From the IMG/VR virus record IMGVR_UViG_3300043449_001455, positions 1 through 55,433 of that record: a stretch of 55,433 bases of DNA; one strand, 5' to 3'. Both the position numbers and the translations under genes were made by a program. Origin of the DNA: a virus. Taxonomy: Duplodnaviria; Caudoviricetes. Below, piece after piece: positions 1 to 55,433 of this stretch (position 1 is the first letter of the stretch; every line of letters begins with the position of its first letter). The notes below the pieces were generated by a model. That model did not search any database. It had not been told where the DNA came from and saw nothing but the letters and a program-made list of their open reading frames with translations.

Positions 1-155
1 GCCGAGCGACGCACACCTAACTGTGAGCCGAGCGACGCACACCTAACTGTGAGCCGAGCGACGCACACCTAACTGTGAGCCGAGCGACGCACACCTAACT
101 GTGAGCCGAGCGACGCACACCTAACTGTGAGCCGAGCGACGCACACCTAACCGTG
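1..155. repeat. 26-bp tandem repeat array (left part), unit GCCGAGCGACGCACACCTAACTGTGA
   Basis: Five exact copies (1-130) plus a degenerate sixth; no spacers; the same unit ends the window, so the contig circularises through the array. Confidence 0.97.
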
Positions 156-160
156 TTGGC

Positions 161-205
161 TGTTTGTGAAACAAACAAACAGCGCAGTTTGTATTAGTTA
201 CAAAC
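161..205. promoter_or_regulatory. Two related inverted repeats in an AT-rich island
   Basis: TGTTTGT-GAA-ACAAACA (161-177) and GTTTGTA-TTAGT-TACAAAC (187-205). Confidence 0.55.
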
Positions 206-231
206 AGCACTGTTTTAGATCTTTATACAAA

Positions 232-284
232 TAGTAAATTTGTACTACTTAGTACACTTGTACTACTGTAGTACATGTATACCA
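232..284. promoter_or_regulatory. Three tandem cyanobacterial LexA (SOS) boxes
   Basis: TAGTAAA-TT-TGTACTA (232-247), TAGTACA-CT-TGTACTA (250-265, perfect match to TAGTACA-N2-TGTACTA), TAGTACA-TG-TATACCA (269-284). Confidence 0.75.
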
Positions 285-11261: not shown

Positions 11262-11269
11262 GCTCATCC

Positions 11270-16491: not shown

Positions 16492-16494
16492 GCC

Positions 16495-18897: not shown

Positions 18898-19427
18898 GCA
18901 GGATCATCGGCCTCTACAGCCCGGCGCCACAGTCGGGCAAGACCTTCGCGGCCACAGCGCTCGCGCACCAGGGCTTCCAGCCGATCAGCTTTGCCGAGCC
19001 ACTCAAGCAGATGGCTGTCGTCTTTCTTGAGAGCTTCGGCTACCGGGAGGATGAGGCCCTGAAGCTGGTTTGGGTCGACAAGCACAAGTATCTGCCCGAA
19101 CTTGGCTGCACAGCCCGGTGGCTGCTGCAGACCATCGGGACAGAGTGGGGCCGGCAGAAGATCGCCGACGATGTCTGGATCCGCTGCTGGCAAGCCCGGG
19201 TCGAGCGTCATGACAAGGTCGTGACAGACGACGTGCGCTTCCTCAACGAGGCCGAGGCGATCAAGGCTGCCGGTGGCGAGATGTGGAAGGTGGTACGGCG
19301 TTCTGCCGTACACGATGGCAGCCACGAATCGGAAGGTGCTCTGGACAATTGGGACGGATTTGATGCCGTGATCGATAATGACGGCAGTCTCGAAGATTTC
19401 CGTCGCAAGATCGACGCACTGCTCTGA
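18894..19427 (+). CDS. Deoxynucleoside monophosphate kinase (T4 gp1-like)
   Basis: QSGKT, SFAEPLK, LLQTIGTEWGR, DDVRFLNE, HESE. Confidence 0.9.
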   Translation: MSRIIGLYSPAPQSGKTFAATALAHQGFQPISFAEPLKQMAVVFLESFGYREDEALKLVWVDKHKYLPELGCTARWLLQTIGTEWGRQKIADDVWIRCWQARVERHDKVVTDDVRFLNEAEAIKAAGGEMWKVVRRSAVHDGSHESEGALDNWDGFDAVIDNDGSLEDFRRKIDALL

Positions 19428-20649: not shown

Positions 20650-20725
20650 TGGTGAGCCGGGAGGGATTCGAACCCTCGGCCAGTTGATTAAAAGTCAACT
20701 GCTCTACCCCTGAGCTACCGGCTCC
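20650..20725 (-). tRNA. tRNA-Lys (UUU), 76 nt with encoded CCA
   Basis: GGAGCCG acceptor stem, D-arm AGCTCAGGGGTAGAGC, anticodon arm GTTGA-CTTTTAA-TCAAC, T-loop GTTCGAATC, 3' ACCA. Confidence 0.95.
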
Positions 20726-22107: not shown

Positions 22108-22370
22108 GCCGGCTCGCCCTCGTCGCTCAGTACCGGCTGCACCTCCTCGTCGCAGATCATGTTGAACAACGACACGTGGGCCATCACCTCGGTGAGGTGG
22201 TTGGCCAGCGCGGTGTACTCGCTCTCGCCAACGATGCCGATGCTGTCCGGGTCGGCGTAGACCAGAAACATCATGGCCGCCTCCTTTGGGCGGCCGTCAC
22301 GAAACAGGTCGTAGGCCGTGCGCAGCCCTTCTTCGGGCGTCACCGTGCCATCGCGGGTGGCGAATCTCAT
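22059..22370 (-). CDS. Hypothetical acidic protein
   Basis: ATGA-coupled to thyX; 3' end overlaps the integrase end. Confidence 0.65.
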   Translation of the reverse strand: MRFATRDGTVTPEEGLRTAYDLFRDGRPKEAAMMFLVYADPDSIGIVGESEYTALANHLTEVMAHVSLFNMICDEEVQPVLSDEGEPAYIACRFQDGDDPTPI

Positions 22371-23098
22371 GGCGCGAGACGGGCTTTGTGCAGCCTAGTG
22401 CGCTCGTACCAAGCCGCGATCTCTGGCGCCCAACGGTGAATCACCGGCCACATCAGATCGCACATTGCCTGGATCTCGGGCTGGGCGTCGGCCTTGGCGC
22501 GCAGATCCATAAAGTGCAGCGCCGAGCGCAGGTTGAACGACACCACGAAGTTCTGGCGGAAGTCGAACGGGATCATGCCGCGGGCGTGCTCCTCGGCCCA
22601 GCCAAGGCTGATTTTGTTTTCGTAGGTGCGGGCTGCGAACAGGCAGTCGGCCAGGTCTGATTCGCGCTGCTCCTCGCTGTAGGTGTATTTCTTGCCCTTG
22701 CGGTCGCGGTATTCGCCGGCCGGTCGCAGGTAAAACACGTCCTCGATGCTGATCTCATCGTTGGCGGCCCGGCAAAGCCGCAGGCCGGTGTAGCGCATCG
22801 ACTGCACGTCGAAACTGATGCCTACGCGATGCGTGCGTGCCTGCTGCATCACCGAATGCGGAAATCCGGCGGTGGCCATGGTGATGGTCGGGTGCTCCAG
22901 CGGGCCGTAGTGGCCGCGCTCGCCGGCGAGCAGGTGCTTGACCACGAGCTTACCGGCCTCTTCCTCCTCGGGCGCGTCACAGTCGAGCACCGTGCCCTCG
23001 AAATAGTCCTGGTGCATCGCCATCCAGACCAGCTGCTGGGGTGCCATCGTCCAGTTGATGGCGTCGATGCGGAAGCGGGGGTCGTTCAGGCTTCCCAT
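22367..23098 (-). CDS. thyX: Flavin-dependent thymidylate synthase
   Basis: GHYGPLEH, QARTHRVGISFDVQSMRY, EEHARG, NLRSALHF, AQPEI (cyanobacterial-type variant). Confidence 0.93.
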   Translation of the reverse strand: MGSLNDPRFRIDAINWTMAPQQLVWMAMHQDYFEGTVLDCDAPEEEEAGKLVVKHLLAGERGHYGPLEHPTITMATAGFPHSVMQQARTHRVGISFDVQSMRYTGLRLCRAANDEISIEDVFYLRPAGEYRDRKGKKYTYSEEQRESDLADCLFAARTYENKISLGWAEEHARGMIPFDFRQNFVVSFNLRSALHFMDLRAKADAQPEIQAMCDLMWPVIHRWAPEIAAWYERTRLHKARLAP

Positions 23099-23604
23099 GA
23101 CGGCATCACTTGGGGTTGAGAGTTGTAGTGGCCGACCTCGGCGTAGGAGATGTCCGGGATCCCGGCGGTCAGCATGAACACCATCTGGCCGATCTTGAGG
23201 CCGGGCCACAGGCGCAGCGGCCGCAGCTGGCGGGCATTGGTGAGCTCCAGCGTCAGCTTCGACCCGGTCCATTGCGGATCCGCGAAGCCGGCATGGCTGT
23301 GCTCCAGGCCCTCGCGCGCGCGGCTCGATTTCAGGAAGAAGAAGCCCGCCACATCGTCGGGCATGTTGAACGTCTCGAACGTCTCGGCGAGGATCCACTG
23401 GCCGGGCTTGAGCAGGTATGGATCGGCCTGGGTGTGAGCACTGATGTTGACGCGCACCAGCGTGTCGGTGGTGGCGCTCTCGATCATGATCTCGTTGCCC
23501 AGCAGCAGGTCGTAGCTGGCCGGGTTGAGCTGGTCGAGATCGAAGGGAACGATCATCCGCTGCTCTTCGCAGAAGCGGCGAAGCTCGGTGTCGTGGAGTA
23601 TCAC
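23086..23604 (-). CDS. dcd: dCTP deaminase
   Basis: LNPASYDL, KSSRAREG, AGFADP, LTLEL, GLKIGQ. Confidence 0.9.
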   Translation of the reverse strand: MILHDTELRRFCEEQRMIVPFDLDQLNPASYDLLLGNEIMIESATTDTLVRVNISAHTQADPYLLKPGQWILAETFETFNMPDDVAGFFFLKSSRAREGLEHSHAGFADPQWTGSKLTLELTNARQLRPLRLWPGLKIGQMVFMLTAGIPDISYAEVGHYNSQPQVMPSWEA

Positions 23605-43842: not shown

Positions 43843-44264
43843 CAGGCCCCAAGGTTGACAACGGAAGTTCTGTACTTGACCAGGTAGTCGCACATCACGA
43901 CACCGGCTGGCACATCTGCTTCCACTGTTTGAAACTCTACTTGGAATGGCTGGATGTCGATCGCGAGCCCGCCAAGTGTCAGATCCGCCATCAGCCTGGC
44001 GTGTAGCGACTCGACTACGGGGTCCGCAGCCTGATCCGGTACGTTGGCGCGCACGATCACGGCCACGCGAACCAGCAGCGACCAGTCCAGCGTTGGCAGG
44101 CTGGTGTTCTGCTCGCAGCGGTCCTTCATCGGCTCGACGATGATCGCCGGGCTCTCCTGTCTTGCCAGTGGCTCCACCCTGCTGCGATAGATCCGGGTGC
44201 TGACGCCGGTGGTGCCGGTCAGCGCTGTGCGGATAGCGGCGAGGATCTGTTCGCGCTTTGTCAT
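43842..44264 (-). CDS. Tail terminator (gpU-like)
   Basis: REQILAAI...RIYRSR..PL...PAIIVE...D.TLGGLA. Confidence 0.8.
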   Translation of the reverse strand: MTKREQILAAIRTALTGTTGVSTRIYRSRVEPLARQESPAIIVEPMKDRCEQNTSLPTLDWSLLVRVAVIVRANVPDQAADPVVESLHARLMADLTLGGLAIDIQPFQVEFQTVEADVPAGVVMCDYLVKYRTSVVNLGA

Positions 44265-44317
44265 GGGTTCAGATTAGCGACAGCCGACAGAGCGGGCGCG
44301 AAGGATGGCGTGAGAAA

Positions 44318-44593
44318 TCATGACTTCGTCAGCATCAATTCGGTGAACTTGCCGTCGTCGACCTTCATCGCCTCGCGGATCGTGTACACGGCGCCATCGA
44401 CGGTGATCGTATTGCCGTAAATCAGACCGCCAAAATCAGCCGTCTTTACTGTGAGCCTGTAGTCGGTGGTGAGCACCATGCCATCTGCCACGATCTGGCT
44501 GGGCATGTCGAGGATGCCTACGCCGGTCACCGCGCCGGCCGACACCGACACTCCGAAATCAGACAGGAACAGATCCAGCTCTTCGGTGATCAC
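44318..44593 (-). CDS. Head closure protein (gpFII-like)
   Basis: FLSDFG...GILD...ITVDG..YTIRE...DDG. Confidence 0.8.
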   Translation of the reverse strand: MITEELDLFLSDFGVSVSAGAVTGVGILDMPSQIVADGMVLTTDYRLTVKTADFGGLIYGNTITVDGAVYTIREAMKVDDGKFTELMLTKS

Positions 44594-45606
44594 AGTGCTA
44601 CCGCCTTGCCTCGTGCAATCAGGCTAGCCGCGTCGGCTGCCAGCACTGCAACTTCAGACCCCGACCAGGCGGGCTGGCCGCCAATCATCACATCCCCCGT
44701 CAGTCGCAGGCGAATCTCGCCCCGGCTGCTCACTGGTGTCGTAATCCGGCGCAGTTGGTCGACCCGAATGGCCTCAATTGCGCAGTCGAGATCATTTCGC
44801 CCATAGGCCACCAGCGCCTTCTGCCCGAACAGTTCCAACCCGCCGGGAAACGCGCATAGTGGCTGCCAGCCCTGCGCGCCTTCTGGCGCACCCCACTCTT
44901 CCTGCGCCGTGATCACCGGTGCCGCAGACATCAGCGTCGGTGCGTGCGGAGCCGTGGCGCCGAACGCCAGCCATGCGGCGTGATACAGGCGACTGCGGCG
45001 CGGGTGCTTCTCCCAGCTGTGGAACATCGTCAGCTTCTGCCCCTGCCAGTCAACCGCAGGCGTGCCACCGCTCATGCGGCCCCAACGCCAGCGCAACGGC
45101 TCGCTGCGCCACTCCTGCACCACCTCGTCGCCATCAAGCTCCAGCACGGTCCACCCGGCCGCGCCCATGTCGTAGATGCAGCGCAGCGCACCCTCGGCCT
45201 CGAAGAACGTCCAGTTCTTTTCCTTGCTGCTCCAGTCGTTGGCGCCGTACTTCGGCACCCACGTCTGTGCCAAGCTCCACGTCTTGCCCTTCTTCACCAG
45301 CCGGCCATAGGCCTGCACGCACTTCCAGCCCTGTTCCAGCCCATAGCGGGCAATCGAGAAGGCGATGTACGTACAGCTGCCGTACATGAAGAGCCGCGGA
45401 TCTTCCAGCGAGCACCCCTTCTCGACACCCGGCACCTTGAGCCGCTGGTTGCGCAGCACTTTGCGTGCCCCATCCAGCTCGGCCAACACGATCTCACTGA
45501 CCTTAAAATCTTCCGGCTCAGACCGGTACGCCAAGAGAAAGCCCTCCCCGGTCGAAACCAGGGAGGGGTTGTAATTCCGCTTGGCCTGAATCAGCCCAGC
45601 GATCAT
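44590..45606 (-). CDS. GH130-like beta-propeller protein with short C-terminal head-accessory-like domain
   Basis: YNPSL, LEDPRLF, EKNWTFF, SGGTP, FPGG, YGRND; tail IRLRLTGDVMIGG...AASLIARGKA. Confidence 0.7.
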   Translation of the reverse strand: MIAGLIQAKRNYNPSLVSTGEGFLLAYRSEPEDFKVSEIVLAELDGARKVLRNQRLKVPGVEKGCSLEDPRLFMYGSCTYIAFSIARYGLEQGWKCVQAYGRLVKKGKTWSLAQTWVPKYGANDWSSKEKNWTFFEAEGALRCIYDMGAAGWTVLELDGDEVVQEWRSEPLRWRWGRMSGGTPAVDWQGQKLTMFHSWEKHPRRSRLYHAAWLAFGATAPHAPTLMSAAPVITAQEEWGAPEGAQGWQPLCAFPGGLELFGQKALVAYGRNDLDCAIEAIRVDQLRRITTPVSSRGEIRLRLTGDVMIGGQPAWSGSEVAVLAADAASLIARGKAVAL

Positions 45607-45608
45607 GT

Positions 45609-47855
45609 TCAGCTCAGGGCACCGGTGCCGTAGCAGAAGGCGCCGGGCTGCTTGATCGCGAAGTCGATGTCCTGCAGCGCGATGATGCGCACGGTGCCGC
45701 TGGTGGCGCCGGCGTAGGGATCGAGGGTCAGGTCGAGACCGGACCACATGCCCATGATCATCTGGTCGAAGGCACCGAACACGATGTCGTCGAAGGCCAG
45801 CTGGTTGGACACCACGGCGGGGTAGCCGTTCACTTCGTTGTTCTCGTACACGAAGCCAGCGGCCACGGCAGAGACAGACTTGGCGGTGGACTTCAGAGCG
45901 CCGCGGGCGGCAGCGTTCATCAGGTAGAACAGCGAGCCGGCGTCGGCGTTGTCCTTGGCGACTTCGGTCTCCATGTCGATCAGCTCGGCGAAGGTGCCGT
46001 AGCCGGTCAGAGACTTGGTGTTGATGCCAACGGTGTTCACCAGGCCGCGGGGCTGGTTGCTGTTGCCGGAGCCGTACAGGCCAGCGCGGTCGATCTCAAG
46101 AGCGATCACGCGAGCCAGGTCGTTGCGGACCATTTGCTCAACGTCCACGGAGGACTGGAGCAGCAGGCGGCGGCTGTAGTCGACGAACGCGCCCACGGTC
46201 TTGGGCGACATGGTCACCTGACCCAGAGTCGGATCGGACTCGGTAGGAGCGTTGCCTTCACCCACCCAGTAAGCAGTGGCGGAACCGGTCTGCTTGGGGA
46301 TGGCGATGTTGCCCTGCAGGCCGTTCAGCACGGTGGCGCCCACCTGAGCCAGGGCCAGCTTGTTGCGCAGCAGCTCGATGAAGGAGCCAGCCAGGAGGTC
46401 GGTAGCAACCAGGTTGCCGCCGGCGGTGGCGGGGCTGGTGGCCAGGTCGCGGCGCAGCACCTCGTTGGGCACCATCAGACCGTTGGCGGGCTTGCCGTAG
46501 GTCTTAGAAGCAGCCTCGGAAACCTCACGCTCGAAAGCGGCGGCTTCAGCAGCCTGTTTGTCGCCGGGGTTGGCGAGGTAGTTGAGGGCGCGAAGGAAGG
46601 AATAGGAGCGGGTCTCCTTGTCGGTCAGGCCGAGGTCGGCTGCCTTTTCGTCAGCGATGCGATGTTCCACTTTGGAGGCGCGGGTGTCGAGTTTGTCGAG
46701 GACAGCGGCGCGAGCCTCGTCCACGGAGCGGCCACCATCGATCAGCTCACGAGCCAGATCTTTGAGGCCATGCTTGTCACCAAGAGCGGTGATGGCGGCG
46801 ATACGGCTACGCTCGGCCTCGGCGGCCTTGGACCGGATCACCTCCACGTCAGGGGTGGTGTTTTCCATTTGGAGAACCTTTGGTTCGGGGGTTGGTGATG
46901 CGGCGGTGGCCGCAGAATCGATCGCAAGCGACCGACCCACACCCACAGTGGGGTCAGCCGGAATGCTAACGACCGATACTTCGTAGGGACTCCAATCAGT
47001 CGCTACGAAGCTCTCGCCACGCTCCTCCATCTTGTTGATGGCGTAGCCAAAGCTGACGCCCCGAAGGACGCCATCCTTGACATCAGCCATCACCTCTTTG
47101 GCGAAGCTGTTGCGAGAGAAGCGGACCTTGACATAGCCACGCTTCTTCTTGCCGTCGACCCATGCACGCTCGACGACGCCCACCACCTTGTCAGGGTTGT
47201 GGTTGAAGAGGAGCGGCGCACCGTCATTGAGACGGCTCAGGTCAGCGGACGCACCGTCGTGGCTCAGCACTTCGTTCCCGAAGTACCGCGCGACGGGATA
47301 CTCGCTAGAGAAGGGGAACTCGAAAGTCCGATCCTCCACTTCCGAGAAAACAGTGGCCTCAGTGCGCTGATAGTTGCCTTCCAGTGAGCGGAGGGCCGAA
47401 ATCTTGGTCAGCGCACTGAATCGATGGCCTGCCATCACGTCAGTTTCATCCCAGCCATCGGCGCCTTTGCGGTACACCGCAATCAGCGCAGCCGGGTCGG
47501 CTTCGGTGCCGACAATCTCGAAGCTGCTGCTGGGCACATCGATGCGGCCATCTCGCTCGATCTTGGTGATCCGACCCTGAGCATTGCCGCCAGGGGTGTT
47601 CCACCGGACAAAGTCACCAACGCTGAGTGCGTCGGCTTCGGCGCGTTGCACCAGACCTTCGGCCGCTTCGCGTTCATCGACATCATCCTCTGACTCTTCG
47701 CCAGACAGTGCCTCGACTACATCCTCGACAGCCTCAGCCATATGCTCAGCCACGACCTCGGCAACAGTCTCGCCGATTGCAGCAACTTGCTCTTCCGTCA
47801 GATCGTGCATTGCACGCTCCTCGGTATCGGTAGGTTGTTCCTTGGGTTCGTCCAT
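45609..47855 (-). CDS. Fused prohead protease and major capsid protein (HK97 fold)
   Basis: FSSEYPV, PLLFNH, VSFGY, EVSVVSIPAD protease motifs; GGNLVATD, IPKQT...YWVGE capsid motifs; possible internal start near 46868. Confidence 0.93.
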   Translation of the reverse strand: MDEPKEQPTDTEERAMHDLTEEQVAAIGETVAEVVAEHMAEAVEDVVEALSGEESEDDVDEREAAEGLVQRAEADALSVGDFVRWNTPGGNAQGRITKIERDGRIDVPSSSFEIVGTEADPAALIAVYRKGADGWDETDVMAGHRFSALTKISALRSLEGNYQRTEATVFSEVEDRTFEFPFSSEYPVARYFGNEVLSHDGASADLSRLNDGAPLLFNHNPDKVVGVVERAWVDGKKKRGYVKVRFSRNSFAKEVMADVKDGVLRGVSFGYAINKMEERGESFVATDWSPYEVSVVSIPADPTVGVGRSLAIDSAATAASPTPEPKVLQMENTTPDVEVIRSKAAEAERSRIAAITALGDKHGLKDLARELIDGGRSVDEARAAVLDKLDTRASKVEHRIADEKAADLGLTDKETRSYSFLRALNYLANPGDKQAAEAAAFEREVSEAASKTYGKPANGLMVPNEVLRRDLATSPATAGGNLVATDLLAGSFIELLRNKLALAQVGATVLNGLQGNIAIPKQTGSATAYWVGEGNAPTESDPTLGQVTMSPKTVGAFVDYSRRLLLQSSVDVEQMVRNDLARVIALEIDRAGLYGSGNSNQPRGLVNTVGINTKSLTGYGTFAELIDMETEVAKDNADAGSLFYLMNAAARGALKSTAKSVSAVAAGFVYENNEVNGYPAVVSNQLAFDDIVFGAFDQMIMGMWSGLDLTLDPYAGATSGTVRIIALQDIDFAIKQPGAFCYGTGALS

Positions 47856-49477
47856 CAGTTAAGCGACCCTTCTGGACGCTCGGGTTGAACTTCTTCCACC
47901 TTACTCGCTTTCTTGCGACGCGATTTCACAGCCCGGCGGGGAGGCTGTTCAGGAGAATCTGCCTCCCCGCCGTCTGCCGCGGGCTCCCCGGGAGGAATAG
48001 GGGCCGCCGGCGGTGCCATATCAACGTCGAGCTGTACCCCGGCGTCGGTGATCGACTTCTTCTCGCGAGCCAGCTGCTGGATGTTTTCGTCAAAATCGCC
48101 GCCCAGCTGCGCGCAGATCTGCGCTTTGGTCATGTAGCCGGCCGCTTCCATCTCACGGTAGGCCTTGACTTCCTTGAGCGGGTCGACCCAGCTCCAGCCG
48201 CGGGCCAGCCACTTCGGGCTGTCGTAGCGCTCGGGGCGCAGCTCGTAATCGGGCAGCGCCAGCTCGCCGGTCAGCACGGCCACGTCGAGCCACTCGCGGA
48301 ACACCCGCATGTGGAAATTCTCGATCAGGTACGCCTGCATCACGCGCCAGTGGTCGCGATCCTCCAGCAGGCTTAGGCGGCTGCTGCTGTAGTTGGTTTC
48401 GCTGAAATCACGGCTCAGCGTTTCGTAGGAGCAGCCAAAGCCCGAAGCAAAGCGCCGGGTCTTGGCGCGCACGAACGCCTCATACTGCGCATCTGGCGAC
48501 GAGATGTCGGGCACCGTGACGCTCTGACCTGGATCGAGATACTTGAACACCCCGGGCTCGAACTCGGTGATGCGCTGCTCGTTCTCAACGTCATCCGCCT
48601 CAAGCTCGCCTTCAGGCGATGTCACGAAGCCCATCAGCGATGCTGCGCTGCGGGCCCGCACCACCGCGGCCTCCTCGTAACCGGCCAGCTGATGCGCATC
48701 GGTGATCACCGGCGCGAACCAGGGCACACCGCGGTGCTGATTCGGGCGCTCGGGAATGAACAGATGGATGACATCCTTGGCCGGCAGGAACACGTGCTTC
48801 ACGTTTTCCCGATCCGGGCTGCCGGCGAACCAATAGTCGCCCGGGTGGCGCGTCAGGAACGCATACTGCACCGGCCGGCCGTAGCGGTCGATCTCGACCC
48901 CCATCCGCCACTCATTGCCCTTGGCGCTCACTGCACCGTTGTACTCATCATCGAGCAGGTCGCTCTCGATGATCTCCAGCGCGATCGGCACCTTGCTGCC
49001 GCCGAACGGGCGCCGGTGGATCCTGAAGATCACCTCGCCGCTTTCTGGCAGCGCACCGGCCGCCAGCCACTCGAACATGTTGAAGCTCTGCTTGCCGGCC
49101 ACATCGCAGTAGTCCTTGCGGCACCAGCGCTCCCACTTGGCCTCGATCAGCCCATTGATCTTCTCGTCGCGTCGATTGCCGCGCAGGCTCATCACCTGCG
49201 ACTGCATCTTCACGCCGGCGCCGATCACGTTGATCTGCGTCGTGCGCTTGGCTTGGCGGGCATACGGGTTGTCCCGCACCATCTGCCGCGACCGGTCGCG
49301 CAGCTTGCGCAGGCTGGTCTTGATCTCGGCATCGGCGCTGGTGCCGTTGCTGATCCAGTCGCTGGTCAGGCGATTGATGATCGCCCCGGCATAGGTGCGG
49401 CGCCGACGCTTGGCGGGCTCCGCCTGTTGTTTCGGCCCGAATCCGATGGCCGTCAGAAGTCGTGTGCGGAGTCCCAT
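47855..49477 (-). CDS. Portal protein (lambda gpB family)
   Basis: LRDRSR, MGVEID..GRP..Y, RGVPW, NYSSSR, WVDPLKE. Confidence 0.93.
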   Translation of the reverse strand: MGLRTRLLTAIGFGPKQQAEPAKRRRRTYAGAIINRLTSDWISNGTSADAEIKTSLRKLRDRSRQMVRDNPYARQAKRTTQINVIGAGVKMQSQVMSLRGNRRDEKINGLIEAKWERWCRKDYCDVAGKQSFNMFEWLAAGALPESGEVIFRIHRRPFGGSKVPIALEIIESDLLDDEYNGAVSAKGNEWRMGVEIDRYGRPVQYAFLTRHPGDYWFAGSPDRENVKHVFLPAKDVIHLFIPERPNQHRGVPWFAPVITDAHQLAGYEEAAVVRARSAASLMGFVTSPEGELEADDVENEQRITEFEPGVFKYLDPGQSVTVPDISSPDAQYEAFVRAKTRRFASGFGCSYETLSRDFSETNYSSSRLSLLEDRDHWRVMQAYLIENFHMRVFREWLDVAVLTGELALPDYELRPERYDSPKWLARGWSWVDPLKEVKAYREMEAAGYMTKAQICAQLGGDFDENIQQLAREKKSITDAGVQLDVDMAPPAAPIPPGEPAADGGEADSPEQPPRRAVKSRRKKASKVEEVQPERPEGSLN

Positions 49478-50058
49478 TAGCGGCCGAACCTCACATAGAG
49501 GTTATGAGGGTTGCCTAGTCCGTTTGCGATCATCGCTGCTTTGTTCTCGCGAGCGACATCAGCCTTGAGCTTGCTCTCCAGCGCCAGCAGGTCGGCGAGC
49601 TCGTAGCGCTTGAGGCTTCGGGTGCCGATCCGGTACTCCTGCACCGCACCGCCGCTCATCAGGCTGCGGATTGCACCCTGAACTGCCTCAAGATCCTTCT
49701 GCGCCTGGCTGCGACCATCGAACGCCCCGGGCAGGCCGGCGTAGCTCAGGCTGGGCAGCACTTCAAACTGCCCCGTGCCCAGCGTCGTCTTCTCGCCGCC
49801 GCTCAGCGCGGTCGCCACCGCCTGGAAGTACCAGATGCCGGCATCAAACGCCGCTGATGTCACCGCCGAGATGGTGAACTCCCACCCCGAATCTGCTGCC
49901 ACGCCGACGACAGTCGCGCCCTCGTGGCTGGTGTTGGTGCGGAGGAAGTAGGTGAGACCGTGAGTTGCACTGGTCAGGGGGGCTCCAAACACGTCCGTGG
50001 CGGAGGGGTCTCGCCAGCGGACTGTGTCTCCAGCGCGTACTTGCGAGGGTATTCTCAC
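49477..50058 (-). CDS. Head completion protein (gpW-like C-terminus)
   Basis: VQEYRIGTRSLKRYELADL; between terL and portal. Confidence 0.75.
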   Translation of the reverse strand: MRIPSQVRAGDTVRWRDPSATDVFGAPLTSATHGLTYFLRTNTSHEGATVVGVAADSGWEFTISAVTSAAFDAGIWYFQAVATALSGGEKTTLGTGQFEVLPSLSYAGLPGAFDGRSQAQKDLEAVQGAIRSLMSGGAVQEYRIGTRSLKRYELADLLALESKLKADVARENKAAMIANGLGNPHNLYVRFGR

Positions 50059-50062
50059 GGCC

Positions 50063-51916
50063 TCACCATTGGCGAACGAACGACCGCTTTGCGGGCTTAT
50101 TCGATCTTAGCGGCGCCTTGCGCTCCCTTTCTACCGGCTTTTCGAGCCGTTTCTCCAGCTGATCCCACATTGTTCTGCGGTCGTACCGCTGATACATCCG
50201 ATTTAGCGCTGCATACGCATACACCAGCTCATCCAGTGCTTCGTTGCGCTGGCTCGATTTCTTCACCCAAACGCGCTCTGGATACCCGCGCACGAACCGG
50301 GTGATCTGCTTCTCTGCTGTCAGCTCCTCAAAATACTCTTTTCCAGCATCTGCGTAAAAGTGCAGGAAGCCTGGGCCGGGCTCGTTGTGCTTTAGTCGGC
50401 CAAACAGCAGGCTTTTCACTGTGTCGCCACCCACCGGATACACCTCGGCGCCTTTCTTCAGCGCCTTGCCCTTGTAGTTCAGGTCGACCTTGGTGGGCTT
50501 GCCGATCGGTGGCTTGCCCTTCTGGCTCTGACCCTTGATCGCGATCACGCCCAGGTTCTGCCGTTCGCGGGCGTACTGGTACACCTCCATCGTGTGGTGG
50601 CCGCCGGAGTCGATGCAGACCACATCCGGCCGCAGCTCGCCGCCCATCGCATGCTTGAACGGCCGCATGATCAGCTCGTCCAGCTGCTTCCACGGCTCTG
50701 GCCGGCTTGGGTCGCCATGGATCACCTGCCGGTCGACCAGCCAGCCTTCCTCCTCGCGGCCCCAGGCCCACACGCTCAGGCTCAGCCTGTTGTCCTGCAC
50801 GTCGCAGCCGATCGTCAGCACTGATGCCTCAGCCGGGATCATCCGCTTCTCGTAGAACTCGGCCCGCTCCAGCAGGCTGTCGGCGCCCACCTTCGCCGCG
50901 TAATCGTCCTCCCAGCTTTCGCCCAGCACGGTGTTGACAAACGTCTTCAGTGCCTCGGGGTCGCTCTTTGCCTCTAGGAACTCGTCCCGCAAGTTCTCCC
51001 AGCTGGCGTTCGGGCTGTAGCTGTAGGCCGCCCAGATGTGGAACGAAGCGTGCTTGCCATTGCCCGGTGCAGTCGCCCGCCATTCGCCGCGCTCGACCAT
51101 CCAGCGCTTTTTGCTATGCGGGATCAGCACCCCGCATTCCTCGCACACGTAATGCACCGGTGAATACGGATCGTCCCACCGCATGTGCGCCCACTTGAGG
51201 TACTGCATGTGCCCGCAATCAGGACACGGCACGAAATACCGGCGCTGGTCGCCCTGCGCGAACAATCGCTCGATCCGGCTTGCATCTTTCAGTGTTGGTG
51301 TGCTGCCGGCGATGATCTTGCGGTTCCAGTAATACTCTGTCCGCCTGATGCCCAGCTTGATCTGGTCGCCCTCGGGCCCGGCACTCGGCGGGTAGCCGTC
51401 CGTTTCGTCGAACATCACAATCCGGCGGCTCACACGGCGGAAGCCCCGCGGGCTGTTGGCGCCCACCAGGCCCAGCGTTCCGCCCGGATACTGCTTCTGC
51501 AGGATCGTGTTGGCGCCGTCCTTCGCCTTGCTATCGCTCACCAACCCCTTCAGCACCGGCACGTCGCGCAGCATTGGCGCGATCTCTTCTTTCGAGTAGC
51601 CCTGGGCGTCCTCAATTGTCGGCTGCACCAGCATCATCGGGCAGGGGTCCTGGTGGATGTGAAAAGCGATGCAGGCGTTGAGGCACTTGGTGTAGCCCAC
51701 CCGGGCGCTCTTCATCACCGAGATCTGCTCGATCGCCGGATCAGTGATCGAGTCCATGATTCCCTTCTGGTACGGCAGCGTGTGCCACCGGCCAGCCTCG
51801 GCGCTGCTCTCGGCCGACAGGAAGAAGTACCGGTCGGACCACTCCGACAGGCTCAGCTTCTCCGGTGGCCTCCATGCCCGCAGCGCAGACGCAGCCAGTT
51901 GCGCAACTTCAGCCAT
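50063..51916 (-). CDS. terL: Terminase large subunit (lambda gpA family)
   Basis: KSARVGYT, FDETD, GSTPT, GCDVQ, IDSGG, RNEALD. Confidence 0.95.
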   Translation of the reverse strand: MAEVAQLAASALRAWRPPEKLSLSEWSDRYFFLSAESSAEAGRWHTLPYQKGIMDSITDPAIEQISVMKSARVGYTKCLNACIAFHIHQDPCPMMLVQPTIEDAQGYSKEEIAPMLRDVPVLKGLVSDSKAKDGANTILQKQYPGGTLGLVGANSPRGFRRVSRRIVMFDETDGYPPSAGPEGDQIKLGIRRTEYYWNRKIIAGSTPTLKDASRIERLFAQGDQRRYFVPCPDCGHMQYLKWAHMRWDDPYSPVHYVCEECGVLIPHSKKRWMVERGEWRATAPGNGKHASFHIWAAYSYSPNASWENLRDEFLEAKSDPEALKTFVNTVLGESWEDDYAAKVGADSLLERAEFYEKRMIPAEASVLTIGCDVQDNRLSLSVWAWGREEEGWLVDRQVIHGDPSRPEPWKQLDELIMRPFKHAMGGELRPDVVCIDSGGHHTMEVYQYARERQNLGVIAIKGQSQKGKPPIGKPTKVDLNYKGKALKKGAEVYPVGGDTVKSLLFGRLKHNEPGPGFLHFYADAGKEYFEELTAEKQITRFVRGYPERVWVKKSSQRNEALDELVYAYAALNRMYQRYDRRTMWDQLEKRLEKPVERERKAPLRSNKPAKRSFVRQW

Positions 51917-52451
51917 CTTTCTCTGCCAGCTCCTCCAGCGCTTCCCGGACGATGTCCTCCAGGATCGCAATCTGGTCCTGGGTGAGATCGGGGATCCGCT
52001 GCTTGGCCTTTGACGGCACACCGAGCACCTTGGTGCGGCTGATCGTGATCACCTCCACCCACTGCGCCTCGACATCCGCGGCCCGCACCAGCAGCCCTTC
52101 CTTCTCCTTGCGCTCCAGCTCCAGCAGCTCGGCCTTGAGGTATTCAGTGCGCGCGCGGCTCTCGTTGTACTCGGGGACAATGTCCTCGGGTTCTGGAGAC
52201 GCGAGTGATCGTTGGGCTGGCTTGGGCCGCGCTGGAGGAAAGGCAGTCTCGCCGGCCGGCGGCTTTGGACCCACGCCGATCTTGGCCATGGTTTTGGCGA
52301 ACCAGTCCTCGCGCAGCGTGTCGGACTGAATCAGCTCCTTGCCTTCAGCCGTGCGCACGACCGGAAGGCGACCCTGGCTGATCGCCTTGTAGACGGCAGT
52401 CCGGGACACTCCGAGCGCCGCGGCGGCTTCTGACTTGGTGATGAGCGGCAA
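51909..52451 (-). CDS. terS: Terminase small subunit
   Basis: N-terminal HTH; YNESRARTE...KEGLLV...IVREALEEL (Nu1-like); TTG start. Confidence 0.85.
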   Translation of the reverse strand: MPLITKSEAAAALGVSRTAVYKAISQGRLPVVRTAEGKELIQSDTLREDWFAKTMAKIGVGPKPPAGETAFPPARPKPAQRSLASPEPEDIVPEYNESRARTEYLKAELLELERKEKEGLLVRAADVEAQWVEVITISRTKVLGVPSKAKQRIPDLTQDQIAILEDIVREALEELAEKDG

Positions 52452-52640
52452 GGTATGCCGGTGGTGTTGACCAATGTTACGGGTTTACAGTCCTGGTTGA
52501 CACCAAGCCCAAAACCTAGGCGCAGAGGCTACTATGGCCGGTTGCCTTGTTTTCGGGGAAAGGGGAGATATTGCGCGAAATCGAGTTGAGGCTCATGAGA
52601 CTCACACCAACTTCGGCAAGTTGTGCCTAGGAAAACATCG

Positions 52641-52682
52641 AGATCCGAATCTACCCCCGAGTCCCTCACGTCGGGAGGACCC
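52641..52682 (-). other. Predicted cos site
   Basis: GGGTCCT (lambda cosQ heptamer) at 52682-52676; 23 nt further, the near-symmetric 12-mer AGATTCGGATCT (52652-52641), matching lambda cosQ-to-cohesive-end spacing; upstream of terS. Confidence 0.65.
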
Positions 52683-52784
52683 GCGAATGAGAATCAGTCG
52701 CAACAAAGGGGCCAGGGCCTGCCCCAGGCCTGCCCCTGGGGTGGCCATTCGCTGAGCTCACCCCAGGCAAAGGGCAGGGGGGTG

Positions 52785-52884
52785 AGATACAACAAAGGCC
52801 CCGCACAATGGCAGGCCCTGAGATACAACAAAGGCCAGGCATGATGCCTGGCCCAGATACAACAAAGGGGCCAGCTGGCCCCCT
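52785..52884 (-). terminator. Three tandem terminator-like units with an identical tail
   Basis: AGATACAACAAAGG at 52785, 52821 and 52855, each adjoining a different GC-rich hairpin; partial fourth copy near 52701. Confidence 0.6.
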
Positions 52885-52908
52885 GCGGTTTGGCTGTGAT
52901 GCCTGGGC

Positions 52909-53991
52909 TCAGGCCCAGACTAGTTCAATCGATCCATCTGCCAGGGCCTGAGGGCCAGGGGTGGCCTGCAGGCTGAAGGGGTCAGCGATGGCACGGTCCG
53001 CCCCTTTGCTTACCTTTGTGCGCAGTATCACAGCCACCCCCTGAGGCTCTAACCATCGATTATCAGACTCATCCCCTGCAATGGCAGGGAGGGTAACTGT
53101 TTGGCCCTTACGGGTGAGCCTGAGGGCCACAGGCCAGGCCTGGCCCTTGGCCAGCAGCACAGGGGCAGCCAGCCTGAAACCTGCCAGGGCAGCTGCCATG
53201 GCGTCTGCCACAGCTGAGGGCCTGTCAGCTGCCAGGCTGGCTGTGACATCCCAGCCAGCTGCCCTTTGTGCTAAAAGGCCAGTCCTGCCCTGCAGGGGGG
53301 CCTTGGAATAGTCGTATAGGGCCATGCTGCCATCGCTCAGGGGCAGGGCCAGGGCCTGGGCTAGGTTCATGGATTCCCCAGCCACAGCCTGCAGGCCATA
53401 ACGTATCCGCAGGGCCTGGGCCTCCTGGGGGCTCAGGCTGAACCGTGCCAAATGGTGCGGGTGATCGTCTGTGCCGCGCAGTCTCACAGCCAAGGGCAGG
53501 CCCAGGGCCTGAGCCTTTGCGTAATGCCGGCCAATGGCCCACAGGAGGGCCCGTTGATACGTGGCAGGCTCAGCCAGCATGGCAAGGGTGCGTCTGCCCC
53601 TGGCAGCTGCCACAGCCTGGCTCAGGCCACCATGGCCAGCCCAGTTAAGGCATCCCATTGCACAGCCAGGGGTGGCCCAGGGGCAGCCATTGCGGGCCAG
53701 GCCCTTTGCCAGGAGGCCCTCAGTCTCAGCCAGGGCCCTCAGGGCAGGGATGAAGGCCCGCGATGGGATGCCGGCATTCTCAGGGGTGATGGCAGCTGCC
53801 AGGGCCTTATGGGGCAAGTGATGAAGAATCACAGGGAGGGCCTGGGCTGAGCCCTTGGCCAGTTTGGCATTGTCGTCTGTCAGCAGGCCAGGGAGGGTGA
53901 GGCTGAACCGTGCCAGGAGGGCTGCCACGTCTGCAGGCAGACGGGAGGGGGCACAAGCGCGGGCCTGGGCTGTGGTTTGGATGGCAGGCAT
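52909..53991 (-). CDS. GP88-family (radical-SAM-like Fe-S) protein
   Basis: CPWATPGCAMGCLNWAGHG, VRLRGTDD, LYDYSK, GDESDNRW; start could be 54018. Confidence 0.75.
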   Translation of the reverse strand: MPAIQTTAQARACAPSRLPADVAALLARFSLTLPGLLTDDNAKLAKGSAQALPVILHHLPHKALAAAITPENAGIPSRAFIPALRALAETEGLLAKGLARNGCPWATPGCAMGCLNWAGHGGLSQAVAAARGRRTLAMLAEPATYQRALLWAIGRHYAKAQALGLPLAVRLRGTDDHPHHLARFSLSPQEAQALRIRYGLQAVAGESMNLAQALALPLSDGSMALYDYSKAPLQGRTGLLAQRAAGWDVTASLAADRPSAVADAMAAALAGFRLAAPVLLAKGQAWPVALRLTRKGQTVTLPAIAGDESDNRWLEPQGVAVILRTKVSKGADRAIADPFSLQATPGPQALADGSIELVWA

Positions 53992-54050
53992 GGAAGGAAG
54001 GGGGATAAGGGTGAGCATTGTCTGGGCTTCCTGTTTGGAATGGCCCTTTG

Positions 54051-54101
54051 TAGCCATTGGCCACAATTCAGTCAACAGAAATATGTGGCCATTGGCCACA
54101 T
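54051..54101. promoter_or_regulatory. Duplicated palindromic operator-like site
   Basis: ATGTGGCCA-T-TGGCCACAT (54083-54101); GCCATTGGCCACA repeated at 54053-54065. Confidence 0.55.
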
Positions 54102-54107
54102 TCTGTG

Positions 54108-54308
54108 CTAGTGGCGATCTGAGATCAGCCAGGCCTGGGCCTGAGGCTCAGGGGGCAGCTGGCTCGATCGGATGGCCCGTCTGAGGGCCTCCTGGGCAGC
54201 CTCCTGGGCAGCGTAATGCTGCAGGATGGCTGCCAGGTCTGGCCTGCCAGGGGTGGCCCATCCGATGGGCTGGCCCTGGCTGTTTGTGACGCGTTCTAGC
54301 TCAGGCAT
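54108..54308 (-). CDS. Hypothetical protein (66 aa)
   Basis: ATG overlaps the upstream stop (ATGCCTGA). Confidence 0.55.
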   Translation of the reverse strand: MPELERVTNSQGQPIGWATPGRPDLAAILQHYAAQEAAQEALRRAIRSSQLPPEPQAQAWLISDRH

Positions 54309-54453
54309 GGGGGGCCAGCTTAAAAGTGTGATCCTGGCCCTTAATACGTTGCAGGAGGGCCAGCCTGCGCTCAGCCACAGCCACAGGCCGAGCCTGGGGG
54401 ATGGCAGGCTGCCATCCCTGCTGAATGCCGCGCCAAATCAAAACAATTGCCAT
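54301..54453 (-). CDS. Hypothetical protein (50 aa; below ORF-track cutoff)
   Basis: MAIVLIWRGIQQGWQPAIPQARPVAVAERRLALLQRIKGQDHTFKLAPHA; pyrimidine-rich leader. Confidence 0.55.
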   Translation of the reverse strand: MAIVLIWRGIQQGWQPAIPQARPVAVAERRLALLQRIKGQDHTFKLAPHA

Positions 54454-54489
54454 GGGAGGGGTAAGGGTAAGGGTTGAAAGGGTGAGGGC

Positions 54490-55104
54490 TCAGGCTGTGG
54501 CCTCACGGGCCAGGGCTAGCCTGCGGATTCCGTCAGCCTGCCAGACCAGCTGGCGGGCCATGCTGCGGATATCTGCAGCAGAACGGGCCAGGGCTGGAAT
54601 CCTGGCCAGGGCCTGCAGGGCCTCAAGGGCCTCAGTCTCGAGTTCAGCGGCCTGGGCCCTGAGCTCAGCAGGGGTGGCAGGGGGGCGAATGGTGGGCAAC
54701 TGAGGGGCAGGGCCAGCCTGGGCGGGAGGGGCAGGGGGCAGGGCCTCACCTGGCAGCACAGGCCGGGCCTGGGCCCAGGGGCCAGGCTCAGAGACTGCGC
54801 TGAACCTGGCCCCCTCAGGGGGCAGGGCCTGGGCCACAGCCTGGGCCACAGCCTGGGCCCTGGCAGCCCTGGCACCCCTGGCAGCCTTAATGGCAGCCTG
54901 GCCAGCTGTGGCAAAGGCCTCTGCAGGGGTGCGAGGGGTAGGGGCATCAACGGCCACCACGCGATAGGCATTGTGGGGGCTGTGCTGAGCCCAGATTGCC
55001 GCGCGACGTTCTGCGCATTCGCGCGGCTCAGGGCCCAGGCCAGTAGGGCCCCAGGCCCCCACGCGGTTCTGCTGAACTTCAATCCGGCAAATTTCAAAAG
55101 CCAT
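54490..55104 (-). CDS. Hypothetical Ala/Pro-rich protein (204 aa)
   Basis: ATG after a pyrimidine-rich leader; small N-terminal domain, linker, C-terminal coiled coil. Confidence 0.6.
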   Translation of the reverse strand: MAFEICRIEVQQNRVGAWGPTGLGPEPRECAERRAAIWAQHSPHNAYRVVAVDAPTPRTPAEAFATAGQAAIKAARGARAARAQAVAQAVAQALPPEGARFSAVSEPGPWAQARPVLPGEALPPAPPAQAGPAPQLPTIRPPATPAELRAQAAELETEALEALQALARIPALARSAADIRSMARQLVWQADGIRRLALAREATA

Positions 55105-55280
55105 AAGAGGTAAGGATTAATGCCCCCAAATACTGAAGCCCAGGCCACCCCTAGCCCAGGGCCAGTGTGCCGGTTTTCTGATTGGCCTAGTTGCCACAGG
55201 CTGGCCACCCCTCGCGAGGGTGCGGACCTGGGGTGGCATTTCACCCCATGCATAAGGAGGGCCACAGCCTGGCCACCCCT

Positions 55281-55433
55281 GCCGAGCGACGCACACCTAA
55301 CTGTGAGCCGAGCGACGCACACCTAACTGTGAGCCGAGCGACGCACACCTAACTGTGAGCCGAGCGACGCACACCTAACTGTGAGCCGAGCGACGCACAC
55401 CTAACTGTGAGCCGAGCGACGCACACCTAACTG
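55281..55433. repeat. 26-bp tandem repeat array (right part)
   Basis: Five exact copies plus 23 nt of the unit seen at 1-155. Confidence 0.97.

What the first reader, a model, noticed from the sequence alone, without database searches (positions are those of the whole stretch)
55281..55433. Perfect 26-bp tandem array at the inner boundary of the leader: possible injection-stop or protein-loading signal
Seen: at least five exact copies at each contig end, no spacers, stop codons in the unit, period not a multiple of 3. Each unit has three CpGs, in contrast to the CpG-poor DNA beside it. True copy number is unresolved. A better origin candidate exists at 4127-4392. Inference: with the adjacent operator island (161-284) it resembles the repeat- and palindrome-rich T5 injection-stop signal, or acts as a decoy array for a DNA-binding protein.
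Basis: partly seen in the sequence, partly recalled or inferred. Interest (0 to 1): 0.8.

Follow-up and report, generated by a model that had tools for sequence, protein, structure and literature searches.

The report
Phased protein-binding repeat array in cyanophage
The repeats at the two contig ends are one real 26-bp array, split by circular assembly, and it most likely serves as a row of binding sites for a DNA-binding protein in the control region of a temperate cyanophage rather than as a proven DNA-injection stop.

Summary
Observation confirmed. The window is a complete, circularly assembled phage record. Its "terminal repeat" is one perfect 26-bp tandem array cut by the assembler: the longest exact end/start overlap is 127 nt, and at least 6 perfect units plus 1 variant unit are present. 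The true count is unresolved.

The array is not an artefact. A relative (G001) carries 3 copies inside its contig. Two further phages (L083, L074) carry 4 and 2 copies of the same 12-15-bp core, CACGGTTAGGTG, at the same place and in about 26-bp phase, with unrelated spacers. This is the iteron or operator pattern.

It is upstream of a CpG-purged four-gene operon that ends at an inferred 13-nt cos site (52643-52655), 2625 bp away. In 47 distinct relatives, 18 arrays occupy this slot (1.54/kb, against 0.027/kb elsewhere).

Best reading (0.55): a binding-site array for an unidentified sequence-specific protein, recently expanded by slippage or recombination.

The T5-like injection-stop idea fits the geometry but fails the T5 features I could test. 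Array presence among relatives is not tied to CpG recoding. I rate it a new variant of a known kind, of moderate interest.

The parts
55281..55433 (-). Tandem array, left part: 5 full perfect 26-bp units plus 23 nt. Read on the - strand, the unit is CACAGTTAGGTGTGCGTCGCTCGGCT.
1..156 (-). Tandem array, right part: 5 perfect units (1-130) and a boundary variant unit (131-156, 2 mismatches). The variant carries the ancestral core CACGGTTAGGTG. The first 127 nt duplicate the last 127 nt of the record.
   Evidence: The ancestral core is shared with G001, L083 and L074.
157..231 (-). AT-rich stretch with three AAACAG / CTGTTTG sites at a 25-bp period. These sites resemble the conserved 23-bp iteron family of more distant relatives.
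   Evidence: Sequence read. GC of 157-300 is 0.326. The 23-bp family is shown.
232..284 (.). Three palindromes TAGTACA-N2/3-TGTACTA that match the cyanobacterial LexA-box consensus AGTACWNWTGTACT.
   Evidence: 3 sites; 0.03 matches expected by chance. Consensus taken from passages of PMC3091678.
354..407 (-). Two GGGACTTGCG..CCGGTTTTAT repeats, weak terminator-like hairpins, at the end of the upstream operon. Relatives carry 2.5-5 copies at a period of 21-43 bp.
   Evidence: 12 of 47 relatives.
55105..55280 (-). Non-coding stretch between the array and the first leader gene. It holds a block (about 55165-55194) conserved in 7 of 7 aligned phages.
54490..55104 (-). First leader gene (204 aa). 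It has no family match. Its N-terminal part of about 70 aa resembles the first leader protein of L083 and L029. The gene is replaced in G001.
   Evidence: The N-terminal similarity was judged by eye.
52909..54453 (-). Leader genes gp50 (54301-54453), gp66 (54108-54308) and gp396 (52909-54099; Pfam GP88, function unknown). All are CpG-recoded at synonymous sites.
52700..52890 (-). Several overlapping terminator-like hairpins followed by TTTGTTG-type T-rich tails, lying between gp396 and cos. TRF scores this as a 36-bp repeat.
52643..52655 (.). Inferred cohesive-end site (13 nt, ATCCGAATCTACC).
   Evidence: The ends of the G001 contig overlap by the homologous 13 nt. The site is unique in the window. 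A Logan contig of run X2 ends at 52655, and one of run X3 begins at 52643.
50063..52451 (-). Small terminase candidate (51909-52451, HTH) and lambda-type large terminase (50063-52021).

Best explanation
The array is a row of phased binding sites (iteron- or operator-like) for a sequence-specific DNA-binding protein that is not yet identified. It lies in the main non-coding control region of a temperate, lambda-type cos phage of a cyanobacterium.

Each 26-bp unit has a 12-15-bp recognition core (CACRGTTAGGTGTGC on the - strand) and an 11-14-bp spacer. The ancestral state was 2-4 diverged copies. In this lineage one unit was amplified into at least 6 identical copies by slippage or unequal recombination. 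The phage encodes its own exonuclease/RecT pair.

The array lies 76 bp downstream of three host LexA boxes and directly upstream of the right-end operon. I infer that a protein loaded on it modulates transcription into that operon, or sets how much of the protein is titrated.

Shown: the array is real and single, its core and phase are conserved, and its position is as described. Inferred: that a protein binds it, which protein, and the effect on the operon.
For: (1) The array is real and not tied to the contig ends. G001 (gp396 91% identical) has 3 units inside its contig, and its unit differs at 5 of 26 positions.

(2) The core is conserved while the spacers diverge. In about 756 kb of 108 oriented related loci, clustered same-strand copies of CACGGTTAGGTG (up to 2 mismatches) occur only in G001 (+125, +151, +177 from the LexA cluster), L083 (+76, +101, +127, and a fourth copy read by eye) and L074 (+78, +104). 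All other hits are single and scattered. The window's first core lies 76 bp from its last LexA box. The spacers are unrelated between L083, L074 and the window.

(3) The slot is a family feature. Among 47 distinct relatives with an oriented LexA-box cluster, 18 have an array of period 18 or more and 2.5 or more copies downstream, 17 of them within 200 bp. The density is 18 arrays in 11.7 kb, against 7 in 256 kb elsewhere.

(4) A second sublineage keeps a degenerate 23-bp array with a conserved core GTTGTTTG in strict phase in 5 distinct phages.

(5) L037 and L085 share almost the same upstream DNA but carry unrelated arrays (26 x 3.2 and 29 x 5.3) at the same junction. This is cassette-like specificity, as in the heteroimmune P2-type operators (abstract of PMC1904268).

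(6) The unit is asymmetric (best self-complement 16 of 26, p = 0.10). No frame is open.
Against: No binding protein was identified. The genes next to the array encode acidic or low-complexity proteins, and the first leader gene is not conserved between the window and G001, which share the core.

The consensus scan finds no sigma-70-type promoter on either side of the array, so 'upstream of the operon's promoter' is an inference.

29 of 47 relatives have no TRF-detectable array in the slot, so an array is dispensable for the family. L083 and L074 are among those 29, which shows that diverged arrays escape this count.

The perfect identity of the copies means the extra units themselves carry no sign of selection.

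The slot is non-coding and the comparison DNA is mostly coding, so the 56-fold enrichment overstates specificity.
Confidence: 0.55

Rival explanations
1. Functionless expansion. The ancestral 2-4 core sites may matter, but the run of identical copies seen here is a neutral minisatellite made by slippage or RecT-type annealing. It has no role of its own beyond breaking the assembly.
For: The copies are 100% identical. Copy number differs between close relatives: 3 in G001 against 7 or more here. L029's 9.8-copy array shows a 4-unit higher-order pattern typical of unequal exchange (read by eye). The phage encodes exonuclease and RecT.
Against: High-copy, high-identity arrays recur at this one slot in at least 5 further phages: L029 26 x 9.8, L037 26 x 3.2, L059 26 x 4.1, L085 29 x 5.3, L143 25 x 3.5. 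Arrays are about 56 times denser in the slot than elsewhere in the same loci.
Confidence: 0.2
2. Replication element. The array is a second set of iterons for the phage's primase-helicase, acting as an origin, a cis replication enhancer or a copy-control 'handcuffing' site next to an AT-rich stretch.
For: Direct repeats abut a stretch of 33% GC (157-300). The only consensus DnaA box in the window lies at 338-346. The array follows the replication module on the same strand.
Against: A better origin lies at 4127-4392: five GTAACGGT repeats and six inverted GTTACA repeats flank an AT-rich core next to the primase gene. The expanded unit does not contain that motif; ACGGTTA occurs only in the boundary unit. 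No Rep3_N or lambda-O initiator is present. One DnaA box equals the chance expectation of 1.05. Cumulative GC skew has no extremum at the array.
Confidence: 0.1
3. Injection pause. A protein or structure on the array, together with the LexA boxes, halts genome entry after the first 2.6 kb until leader genes are expressed, as at the T5 injection-stop signal.
For: The array lies 2625 bp (4.7%) from the inferred cos end opposite the terminase genes. It coincides with the sharp inner edge of a block purged of CpG at synonymous sites and codon junctions: NCG codons are 5 of 140 in gp396 against 60 of 135 in TerL. Like the T5 site, it sits in a repeat- and palindrome-rich region with host-protein sites (passages of 10.1101/866236).
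Against: The T5 site is conserved in sequence and order in all 25 relatives compared and has 8 paired DnaA boxes. Here 29 of 47 relatives have no detectable array and the units are unrelated, and there is 1 DnaA box in the whole window. The same core array occurs beside CpG-rich leaders (leader/upstream ratio 1.45 in L083 and 1.64 in L074). Across 30 relatives, array presence does not go with CpG depletion (medians 1.47 with an array, 1.38 without; p = 0.71). The CpG-poor block also matches the span from the array to the terminator-like hairpins, and it is the most conserved DNA between the window and G001 (89% against 67-88% elsewhere). A mobile or recoded operon therefore explains the edge without a pause. 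The leader operon is read towards the DNA end, so the array-side control region must already be inside the cell for it to be expressed.
Confidence: 0.07
4. Partition site (centromere) of a plasmid-like prophage, or an assembly or adapter artefact.
For: Tandem identical repeats upstream of an operon resemble plasmid centromeres such as sopC and parC (recalled). The repeats sit at both contig ends.
Against: No ParB_N or ParA-type ATPase is present in the record. An integrase next to a tRNA gene points to integration. An artefact is excluded by the in-contig array of G001, by the shared core in L083 and L074, and by Logan contigs of runs X1 and X2 that run from the unique flank into a G001-type unit. 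The unit has 0 exact matches elsewhere in three collections, so it is not a recurrent adapter.
Confidence: 0.03

Closest known systems
Direct-repeat operators of P2-family immunity repressors (P2 C, WPhi, P2 Hy dis)
   Same: They are asymmetric direct repeats in the control region of a temperate phage. Between close, otherwise similar phages they vary in sequence, number, spacing and position (abstracts of PMC1904268 and PMC2995052, seen in the listing). The arrays here behave the same way.
   Different: P2-type operators have 2-3 repeats, whereas this array has at least 7 contiguous units of 26 bp. No C-type repressor was identified in the window. No binding was tested.
Plasmid and phage iterons (R6K, P1, lambda ori; recalled from general knowledge)
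   Same: They have a conserved core plus a variable spacer at fixed phase, are contiguous head-to-tail units, lie next to AT-rich DNA and vary in copy number.
   Different: No Rep3_N or lambda-O initiator is present. A separate and better origin candidate lies at 4127-4392. A 26-bp period is about 2.5 helical turns, not the usual 2 or so.
T5 injection-stop signal (iss)
   Same: It is a non-coding, repeat- and palindrome-rich region with host-protein sites, lying at the inner edge of a terminal segment that should enter first (for T5; for this phage).
   Different: The T5 region is conserved in sequence and order in all relatives and carries 8 paired DnaA boxes. Here the array is variable or absent in relatives, the host sites are LexA boxes, and the phage is a temperate cos siphophage with no terminal repeat.
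LexA-controlled right-end genes of temperate phages (coliphage 186 tum; recalled)
   Same: An SOS-box-controlled operon lies at the genome end next to cos.
   Different: There are three to nine LexA boxes in a row, followed by a repeat array. No antirepressor homologue was identified.

Membership tests
T5-type injection-stop signal | Lies at the inner boundary of the first-entering terminal segment | tested here: inconclusive
   The array is 2625 bp from the inferred cos site, on the side away from the terminase genes. That this end enters first is inferred from lambda-type packaging polarity (recalled) and was not observed.
T5-type injection-stop signal | Repeats conserved in sequence and order in all relatives | tested here: not met
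   18 of 47 distinct relatives have any array in the slot, and their units are unrelated. The same core occurs only in G001, L083 and L074. The T5 criterion comes from passages of 10.1101/866236.
T5-type injection-stop signal | Set of paired DnaA boxes | tested here: not met
   TTWTNCACA has 1 match in the window (338-346), with 1.05 expected by chance.
T5-type injection-stop signal | Pre-early A1/A2-type genes in the leader, and a physically mapped stop | not tested
   Leader proteins match no named family except GP88 and one PHROG of unknown function. No A1/A2 profile was searched. A physical stop needs an infection experiment.
Iteron / direct-repeat operator array | Two or more same-strand repeats with a conserved core at fixed phase, and spacers free to vary | tested here: met
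   the core CACGGTTAGGTG occurs at 25-28-bp spacing in four phages, with unrelated spacers.
Iteron / direct-repeat operator array | A cognate binding protein | tested here: inconclusive
   No candidate stood out. Weak HTH, AP2 and zinc-ribbon hits lie 10-16 kb away. The neighbouring proteins are acidic.
Iteron-type replication origin | Iteron-binding initiator gene (Rep3_N or lambda O) | tested here: not met
   0 matches for PF01051 and PF04492 in the record, and the control genomes gave matches. A primase-helicase is present, but its DNA specificity is unknown.
Partition centromere (type I) | ParA ATPase and ParB in the same element | tested here: not met
   0 matches for PF13614 and PF02195, and the control genomes gave matches. 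ParM/ParR and TubZ/TubR were not searched.
True direct terminal repeat of the virion DNA | The repeat marks the physical genome ends | tested here: not met
   The overlap is 127 nt of a periodic array. The likely physical ends are the 13-nt cos site at 52643-52655.

The most novel reading that the evidence does not exclude
The array and the LexA-box cluster beside it form a protein-loaded checkpoint at the inner edge of the first-entering, CpG-purged 2.6-kb segment. This would be two-step genome entry, so far known from the virulent phage T5, in a temperate lambda-type cyanophage. The purge of CpG would record selection on DNA that is exposed alone to host defences.
Probability: 0.06. Interest if true: 0.85.

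Novelty: new variant of a known kind. Interest (0 to 1): 0.4.

Why it matters
First, there is a practical point. The record's 'direct terminal repeat', and hence its 'complete' label, comes from a tandem array. The real ends are probably a cos site 2.6 kb away.

Second, the array exposes a shared control-region plan in a large group of uncultured, mostly freshwater phages. The plan is terminator-like repeats, then 2-9 host LexA boxes, then a lineage-specific phased repeat array, then a right-end operon next to cos. If the arrays are the specificity sites of a regulator, they would mark immunity or control groups in temperate cyanophages, which are little studied.

Third, the neighbouring CpG-purged terminal operon is unusual and deserves its own study.

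Tried and rejected
Exact-pattern scans for the unit found nothing: 0 in viral contigs, and 0 in genome contigs and metagenome contigs with a pattern that fits both the window and G001.

Megablast of 1-12000 against named phages gave no match. Megablast of 44000-55433 gave one 134-bp hit in the large terminase gene of Synechococcus phage S-LBS1.

The first leader protein found no relative in viral contigs.

Dyad symmetry of 14 array units is not significant in any (p = 0.10 or higher). I therefore dropped hairpin, cruciform and dimer-palindrome readings. The low RNA folding energy of the array (z = -5.6) reflects repeats pairing with each other, and relatives do not share it.

Rfam gave only a tRNA at 20653-20724.

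I tested a link between array presence and CpG depletion and found none (13 with an array against 17 without; p = 0.71).

The ends of the G002 contig lie in coding DNA with no overlap, so they say nothing about distance to a genome end.

The gp396 model (pLDDT 77) has no PDB match at E <= 0.001. The weak rows are TIM-barrel enzymes. The Atlas only repeats 'GP88 family'.

A host search in genome contigs gave 2 MAG contigs labelled Gammaproteobacteria. I do not trust this as host evidence.

No RNA holder was listed among the sequencing runs.

All four runs are held as contigs only, so copy number and molecule ends could not be measured. X1 has almost no cover in 52575-52689. X2 has a 51-nt record on the array at depth 121 beside a 2557-nt flank contig at depth 21. 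That would fit about 6-7 units in a G001-type variant, but the tool states that such depths are not copy numbers.

The consensus scan found no sigma-70 promoter near the array.

The search of earlier findings had nothing for this genome.

Complex prediction was not used, because no candidate partner emerged.

No supplementary files were opened.

Full report
THE OBSERVATION

The 26-bp unit GCCGAGCGACGCACACCTAACTGTGA fills 55281-55433 (5 full copies plus 23 nt, 100% identical). It also fills 1-155 (5 perfect copies, then a sixth at 131-156 with 2 changes).

The record is an IMG/VR virus record classed as having 'direct terminal repeats'. The longest exact match between its end and its start is 127 nt, which is 4 units plus 23 nt. 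The shorter exact matches step down by 26 nt. This is the signature of a circular contig closed on a k-mer overlap that falls inside a periodic array. So there is one array, not two. It holds at least 6 perfect units plus the variant boundary unit, and the true number cannot be read from the assembly.

- There are three CpG per unit.
- Stops occur in all six frames; the longest open stretch is 25 codons.
- The period is not divisible by 3.
- The neighbouring DNA is CpG-poor: observed/expected 0.29 in 52701-55280 against 1.01 in the rest.

THE GENOME

PHROG and Pfam scans show a complete temperate siphophage:
- Packaging and structure: lambda-type large terminase (50063-52021, - strand), an HTH small-terminase candidate (51909-52451), portal, protease-capsid fusion, tape measure and endolysin.
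- Lysogeny and recombination: a tyrosine integrase (20968-22107) next to a tRNA, plus exonuclease, RecT and SSB.
- Replication: a helicase and an 898-aa primase-helicase.

The close relative G001 (55,495 bp) is a linear record. Its last 13 nt repeat its first 13 nt (ATTCGAATTAACC), and the two ends abut in the gap between gp396 and the small terminase gene. The homologous 13-mer in the window is unique, at 52643-52655. In contigs of two other public runs, one record ends exactly at 52655 and another begins exactly at 52643 (records 12 and 18). I read this as a 13-nt cohesive-end site, inferred from contig ends rather than from end sequencing.

With cosB and the terminase genes on the low-coordinate side, lambda-type polarity (recalled knowledge) makes 52656-55280 the last DNA packaged and the first to leave the head. 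The array's inner edge is 2625 bp, or 4.7% of the genome, from that end.

WHAT SURROUNDS THE ARRAY

Read on the - strand, which is the strand of all flanking genes, the order is:
1. The last small genes of the replication-side operon.
2. Two GGGACTTGCG..CCGGTTTTAT repeats that score as weak terminators (354-407).
3. Three palindromes TAGTACA-N2/3-TGTACTA at 232-284 (0.03 expected by chance).
4. Three AAACAG/CTGTTTG sites at a 25-bp period, in 33%-GC DNA.
5. The array.
6. 176 bp of non-coding DNA with a block conserved in 7 of 7 aligned phages.
7. Four genes: 204 aa, 50 aa, 66 aa, and the 396-aa GP88-family protein.
8. Several terminator-like hairpins.
9. cos.

The palindromes match the cyanobacterial LexA-box consensus AGTACWNWTGTACT (passages of PMC3091678). 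Two of the three fit with 1 or 2 mismatches. The 'operator island' is thus a cluster of host SOS boxes, and the host is most likely a cyanobacterium. The only hit to a named phage, in the terminase gene of a Synechococcus phage, and the freshwater metagenome runs that hold the sequence agree with this.

RELATIVES

A scan of IMG/VR for paired LexA-type boxes returned 77 loci. A scan with a gp396 alignment confirmed 473 of 600 pattern matches as relatives and kept the best 80. Many share the window's flanking genes.

After orienting the loci and collapsing those that are at least 95% identical, 47 distinct relatives with a box cluster remained. 61 of the 108 oriented loci were dropped, either because they lacked a cluster or because they were near-duplicates.
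- 18 of the 47 have a tandem array (period 18 or more, 2.5 or more copies, TRF score 50 or more) downstream of the boxes, 17 of them within 200 bp.
- 12 of the 47 have the terminator-like repeats just upstream.
- Array density is 18 in 11.7 kb in the slot, against 7 in 256 kb elsewhere in the same loci. The slot is non-coding, which inflates the contrast.

Units differ widely. Periods run from 18 to 59 bp and identity from 60 to 100%. High-identity examples are L029 (26 x 9.8), L037 (26 x 3.2), L059 (26 x 4.1), L085 (29 x 5.3) and L143 (25 x 3.5). L037 and L085 share nearly the same upstream DNA yet carry unrelated arrays at the same junction.

THE KEY RESULT

G001 has three units inside its contig. 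Its unit is CACGGTTAGGTGTGCTCTGCTCGGCC, which differs at 5 of 26 positions from the window's unit.

TRF misses L083 and L074, but they carry the same core at the same place:
- L083 has four copies of (C/A)ACGGTTAGGTG(C/T)(A/G)C, spaced 25, 26 and 28 bp apart, with unrelated spacers.
- L074 has two 26-bp units with yet another spacer.

In 756 kb of related loci, clustered same-strand cores occur only in these three phages, always 76-177 bp after the LexA cluster. The window's first core is 76 bp after its last box.

The window's boundary unit keeps the ancestral CACGG, while the amplified unit has CACAG. A conserved core at fixed phase, with free spacers, marks binding sites under selection. 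A separate sublineage shows the same pattern with a 23-bp unit in 5 phages.

The unit has no significant dyad symmetry. The sites are therefore asymmetric, as in iterons or P2-type operators (abstracts of PMC1904268 and PMC2995052, seen in the listing).

WHAT IT MOST LIKELY DOES

I commit to a phased binding-site array for a sequence-specific protein in the phage's control region. One unit was recently amplified. The phage's own exonuclease/RecT pair and simple slippage are both plausible causes.

Shown: the array is real, its core and phase are conserved, it sits between the SOS boxes and the right-end operon, and this slot is used across the family.

Inferred: that a protein binds, and that binding modulates transcription into the operon or titrates the protein.

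Unknown: the protein itself. The adjacent proteins are acidic. The first leader gene differs between the window and G001 although they share the core. The weak DNA-binding candidates (HTH, AP2, zinc-ribbon-HTH) lie far away. No consensus sigma-70 promoter is found on either side of the array.

THE INJECTION-STOP IDEA

Points in its favour are the position of the array and the sharp edge of CpG purging. The purging is real recoding:
- NCG codons are 5 of 140 in gp396, against 60 of 135 in the large terminase.
- C3-G1 codon junctions number 11 against 57 expected.
- There is a TG/CA excess.

Points against it:
- The T5 signal is conserved in sequence and order in all relatives and has eight paired DnaA boxes (passages of 10.1101/866236). 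Here the array is variable or undetected in most relatives, and the window has one DnaA box, which is the chance number.
- The same core array sits beside CpG-rich leaders in L083 and L074. Across 30 relatives, array presence is unrelated to leader CpG content (p = 0.71). Only G001 shares the strong purge (0.35 of its upstream value).
- The CpG-poor block coincides with the span from the array to the terminator-like hairpins. It is also the most conserved DNA between the window and G001 (89% against 67-88% elsewhere). A recoded or exchanged operon explains the edge without a pause.

The idea remains untested rather than refuted.

OTHER RIVALS

- Origin: a far better candidate lies at 4127-4392, with direct GTAACGGT and inverted GTTACA repeats around an AT-rich core beside the primase gene. 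No Rep3 or lambda-O initiator is present.
- Partition site: no ParA or ParB is present, and the phage has an integrase.
- Artefact: excluded by G001, L083 and L074, and by contigs of other runs that enter a G001-type unit from the unique flank.

VERDICT

The 'injection stop' half is unsupported. The array is a new variant of a known kind of element. The wider control-region plan and the CpG-purged terminal operon are the more unusual features.

Noticed in passing
window 52701-55280: The right-end operon is purged of CpG (observed/expected 0.29 against 1.01) at synonymous sites and codon junctions, with a TG/CA excess. The block runs from just inside cos to the array. It is the most conserved DNA between the window and G001 (89%). 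Only G001 shares the strong purge among 30 relatives, and L040 and L018 show a weaker one.
   Followed up: partly
window 232-284; loci L012-L088: Clusters of 2-9 cyanobacterial LexA boxes stand in the same control region of many uncultured phages (77 IMG/VR loci with paired boxes). One search of the held papers for 'LexA box' together with 'cyanophage' found no description of this.
   Followed up: partly
L029 1897-1947; L018, L020, L033, L045, L057, L075: An exact Fur-box-like 19-mer, GATAATGAGAATCATTCTC, lies next to the LexA boxes in 7 distinct related loci. A related palindrome abuts the arrays of L037 and L085. There is none in the window.
   Followed up: partly
window 52643-52655: This is a probable 13-nt cohesive-end site. 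The G001 contig ends overlap by the homologous 13 nt, and contigs of two other runs stop or start exactly there. The IMG/VR 'DTR' of this record is therefore not the physical end.
   Followed up: yes
window 52700-52890: Several overlapping terminator-like hairpins, followed by TTTGTTG-type T-rich tails, lie between gp396 and cos (a 36-bp repeat by TRF). If late transcription crosses cos as in lambda, it would need read-through here.
   Followed up: no
window 4127-4392: An origin-like region: five direct GTAACGGT repeats and six inverted GTTACA repeats flank an AT-rich core, immediately after the primase-helicase gene.
   Followed up: partly
window 55165-55194 (- strand block): A non-coding block, GCAACTAGGCCAATC..AACCGGCACAC, about 70-90 bp upstream of the first leader gene, is conserved in 7 of 7 aligned phages whether or not they have an array. 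It is preceded in some by a TATGGG motif and a hairpin that varies in sequence.
   Followed up: no
window 52909-54099: gp396 belongs to the large GP88 family (Pfam PF17338; 473 of 600 pattern matches confirmed as relatives in IMG/VR). It always lies just upstream of cos and the terminase genes. Three cysteines are invariant (C139, C146, C150), as is an RLRGTDD-type motif. The model has no PDB match at E <= 0.001.
   Followed up: partly
window 22367-23398 and 18855-19427: A ThyX-type thymidylate synthase homologue and a dNMP kinase are present. In other phages this pairing accompanies modified pyrimidines (recalled).
   Followed up: no
window 16102-16761: Adjacent small genes carry an RNA polymerase alpha C-terminal-domain-like region and a stand-alone AP2 DNA-binding domain.
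   Followed up: no
run X1: The best-holding run contains both the window's phage and a G001-like variant at lower depth, so the two relatives co-occur in one sample.
   Followed up: no
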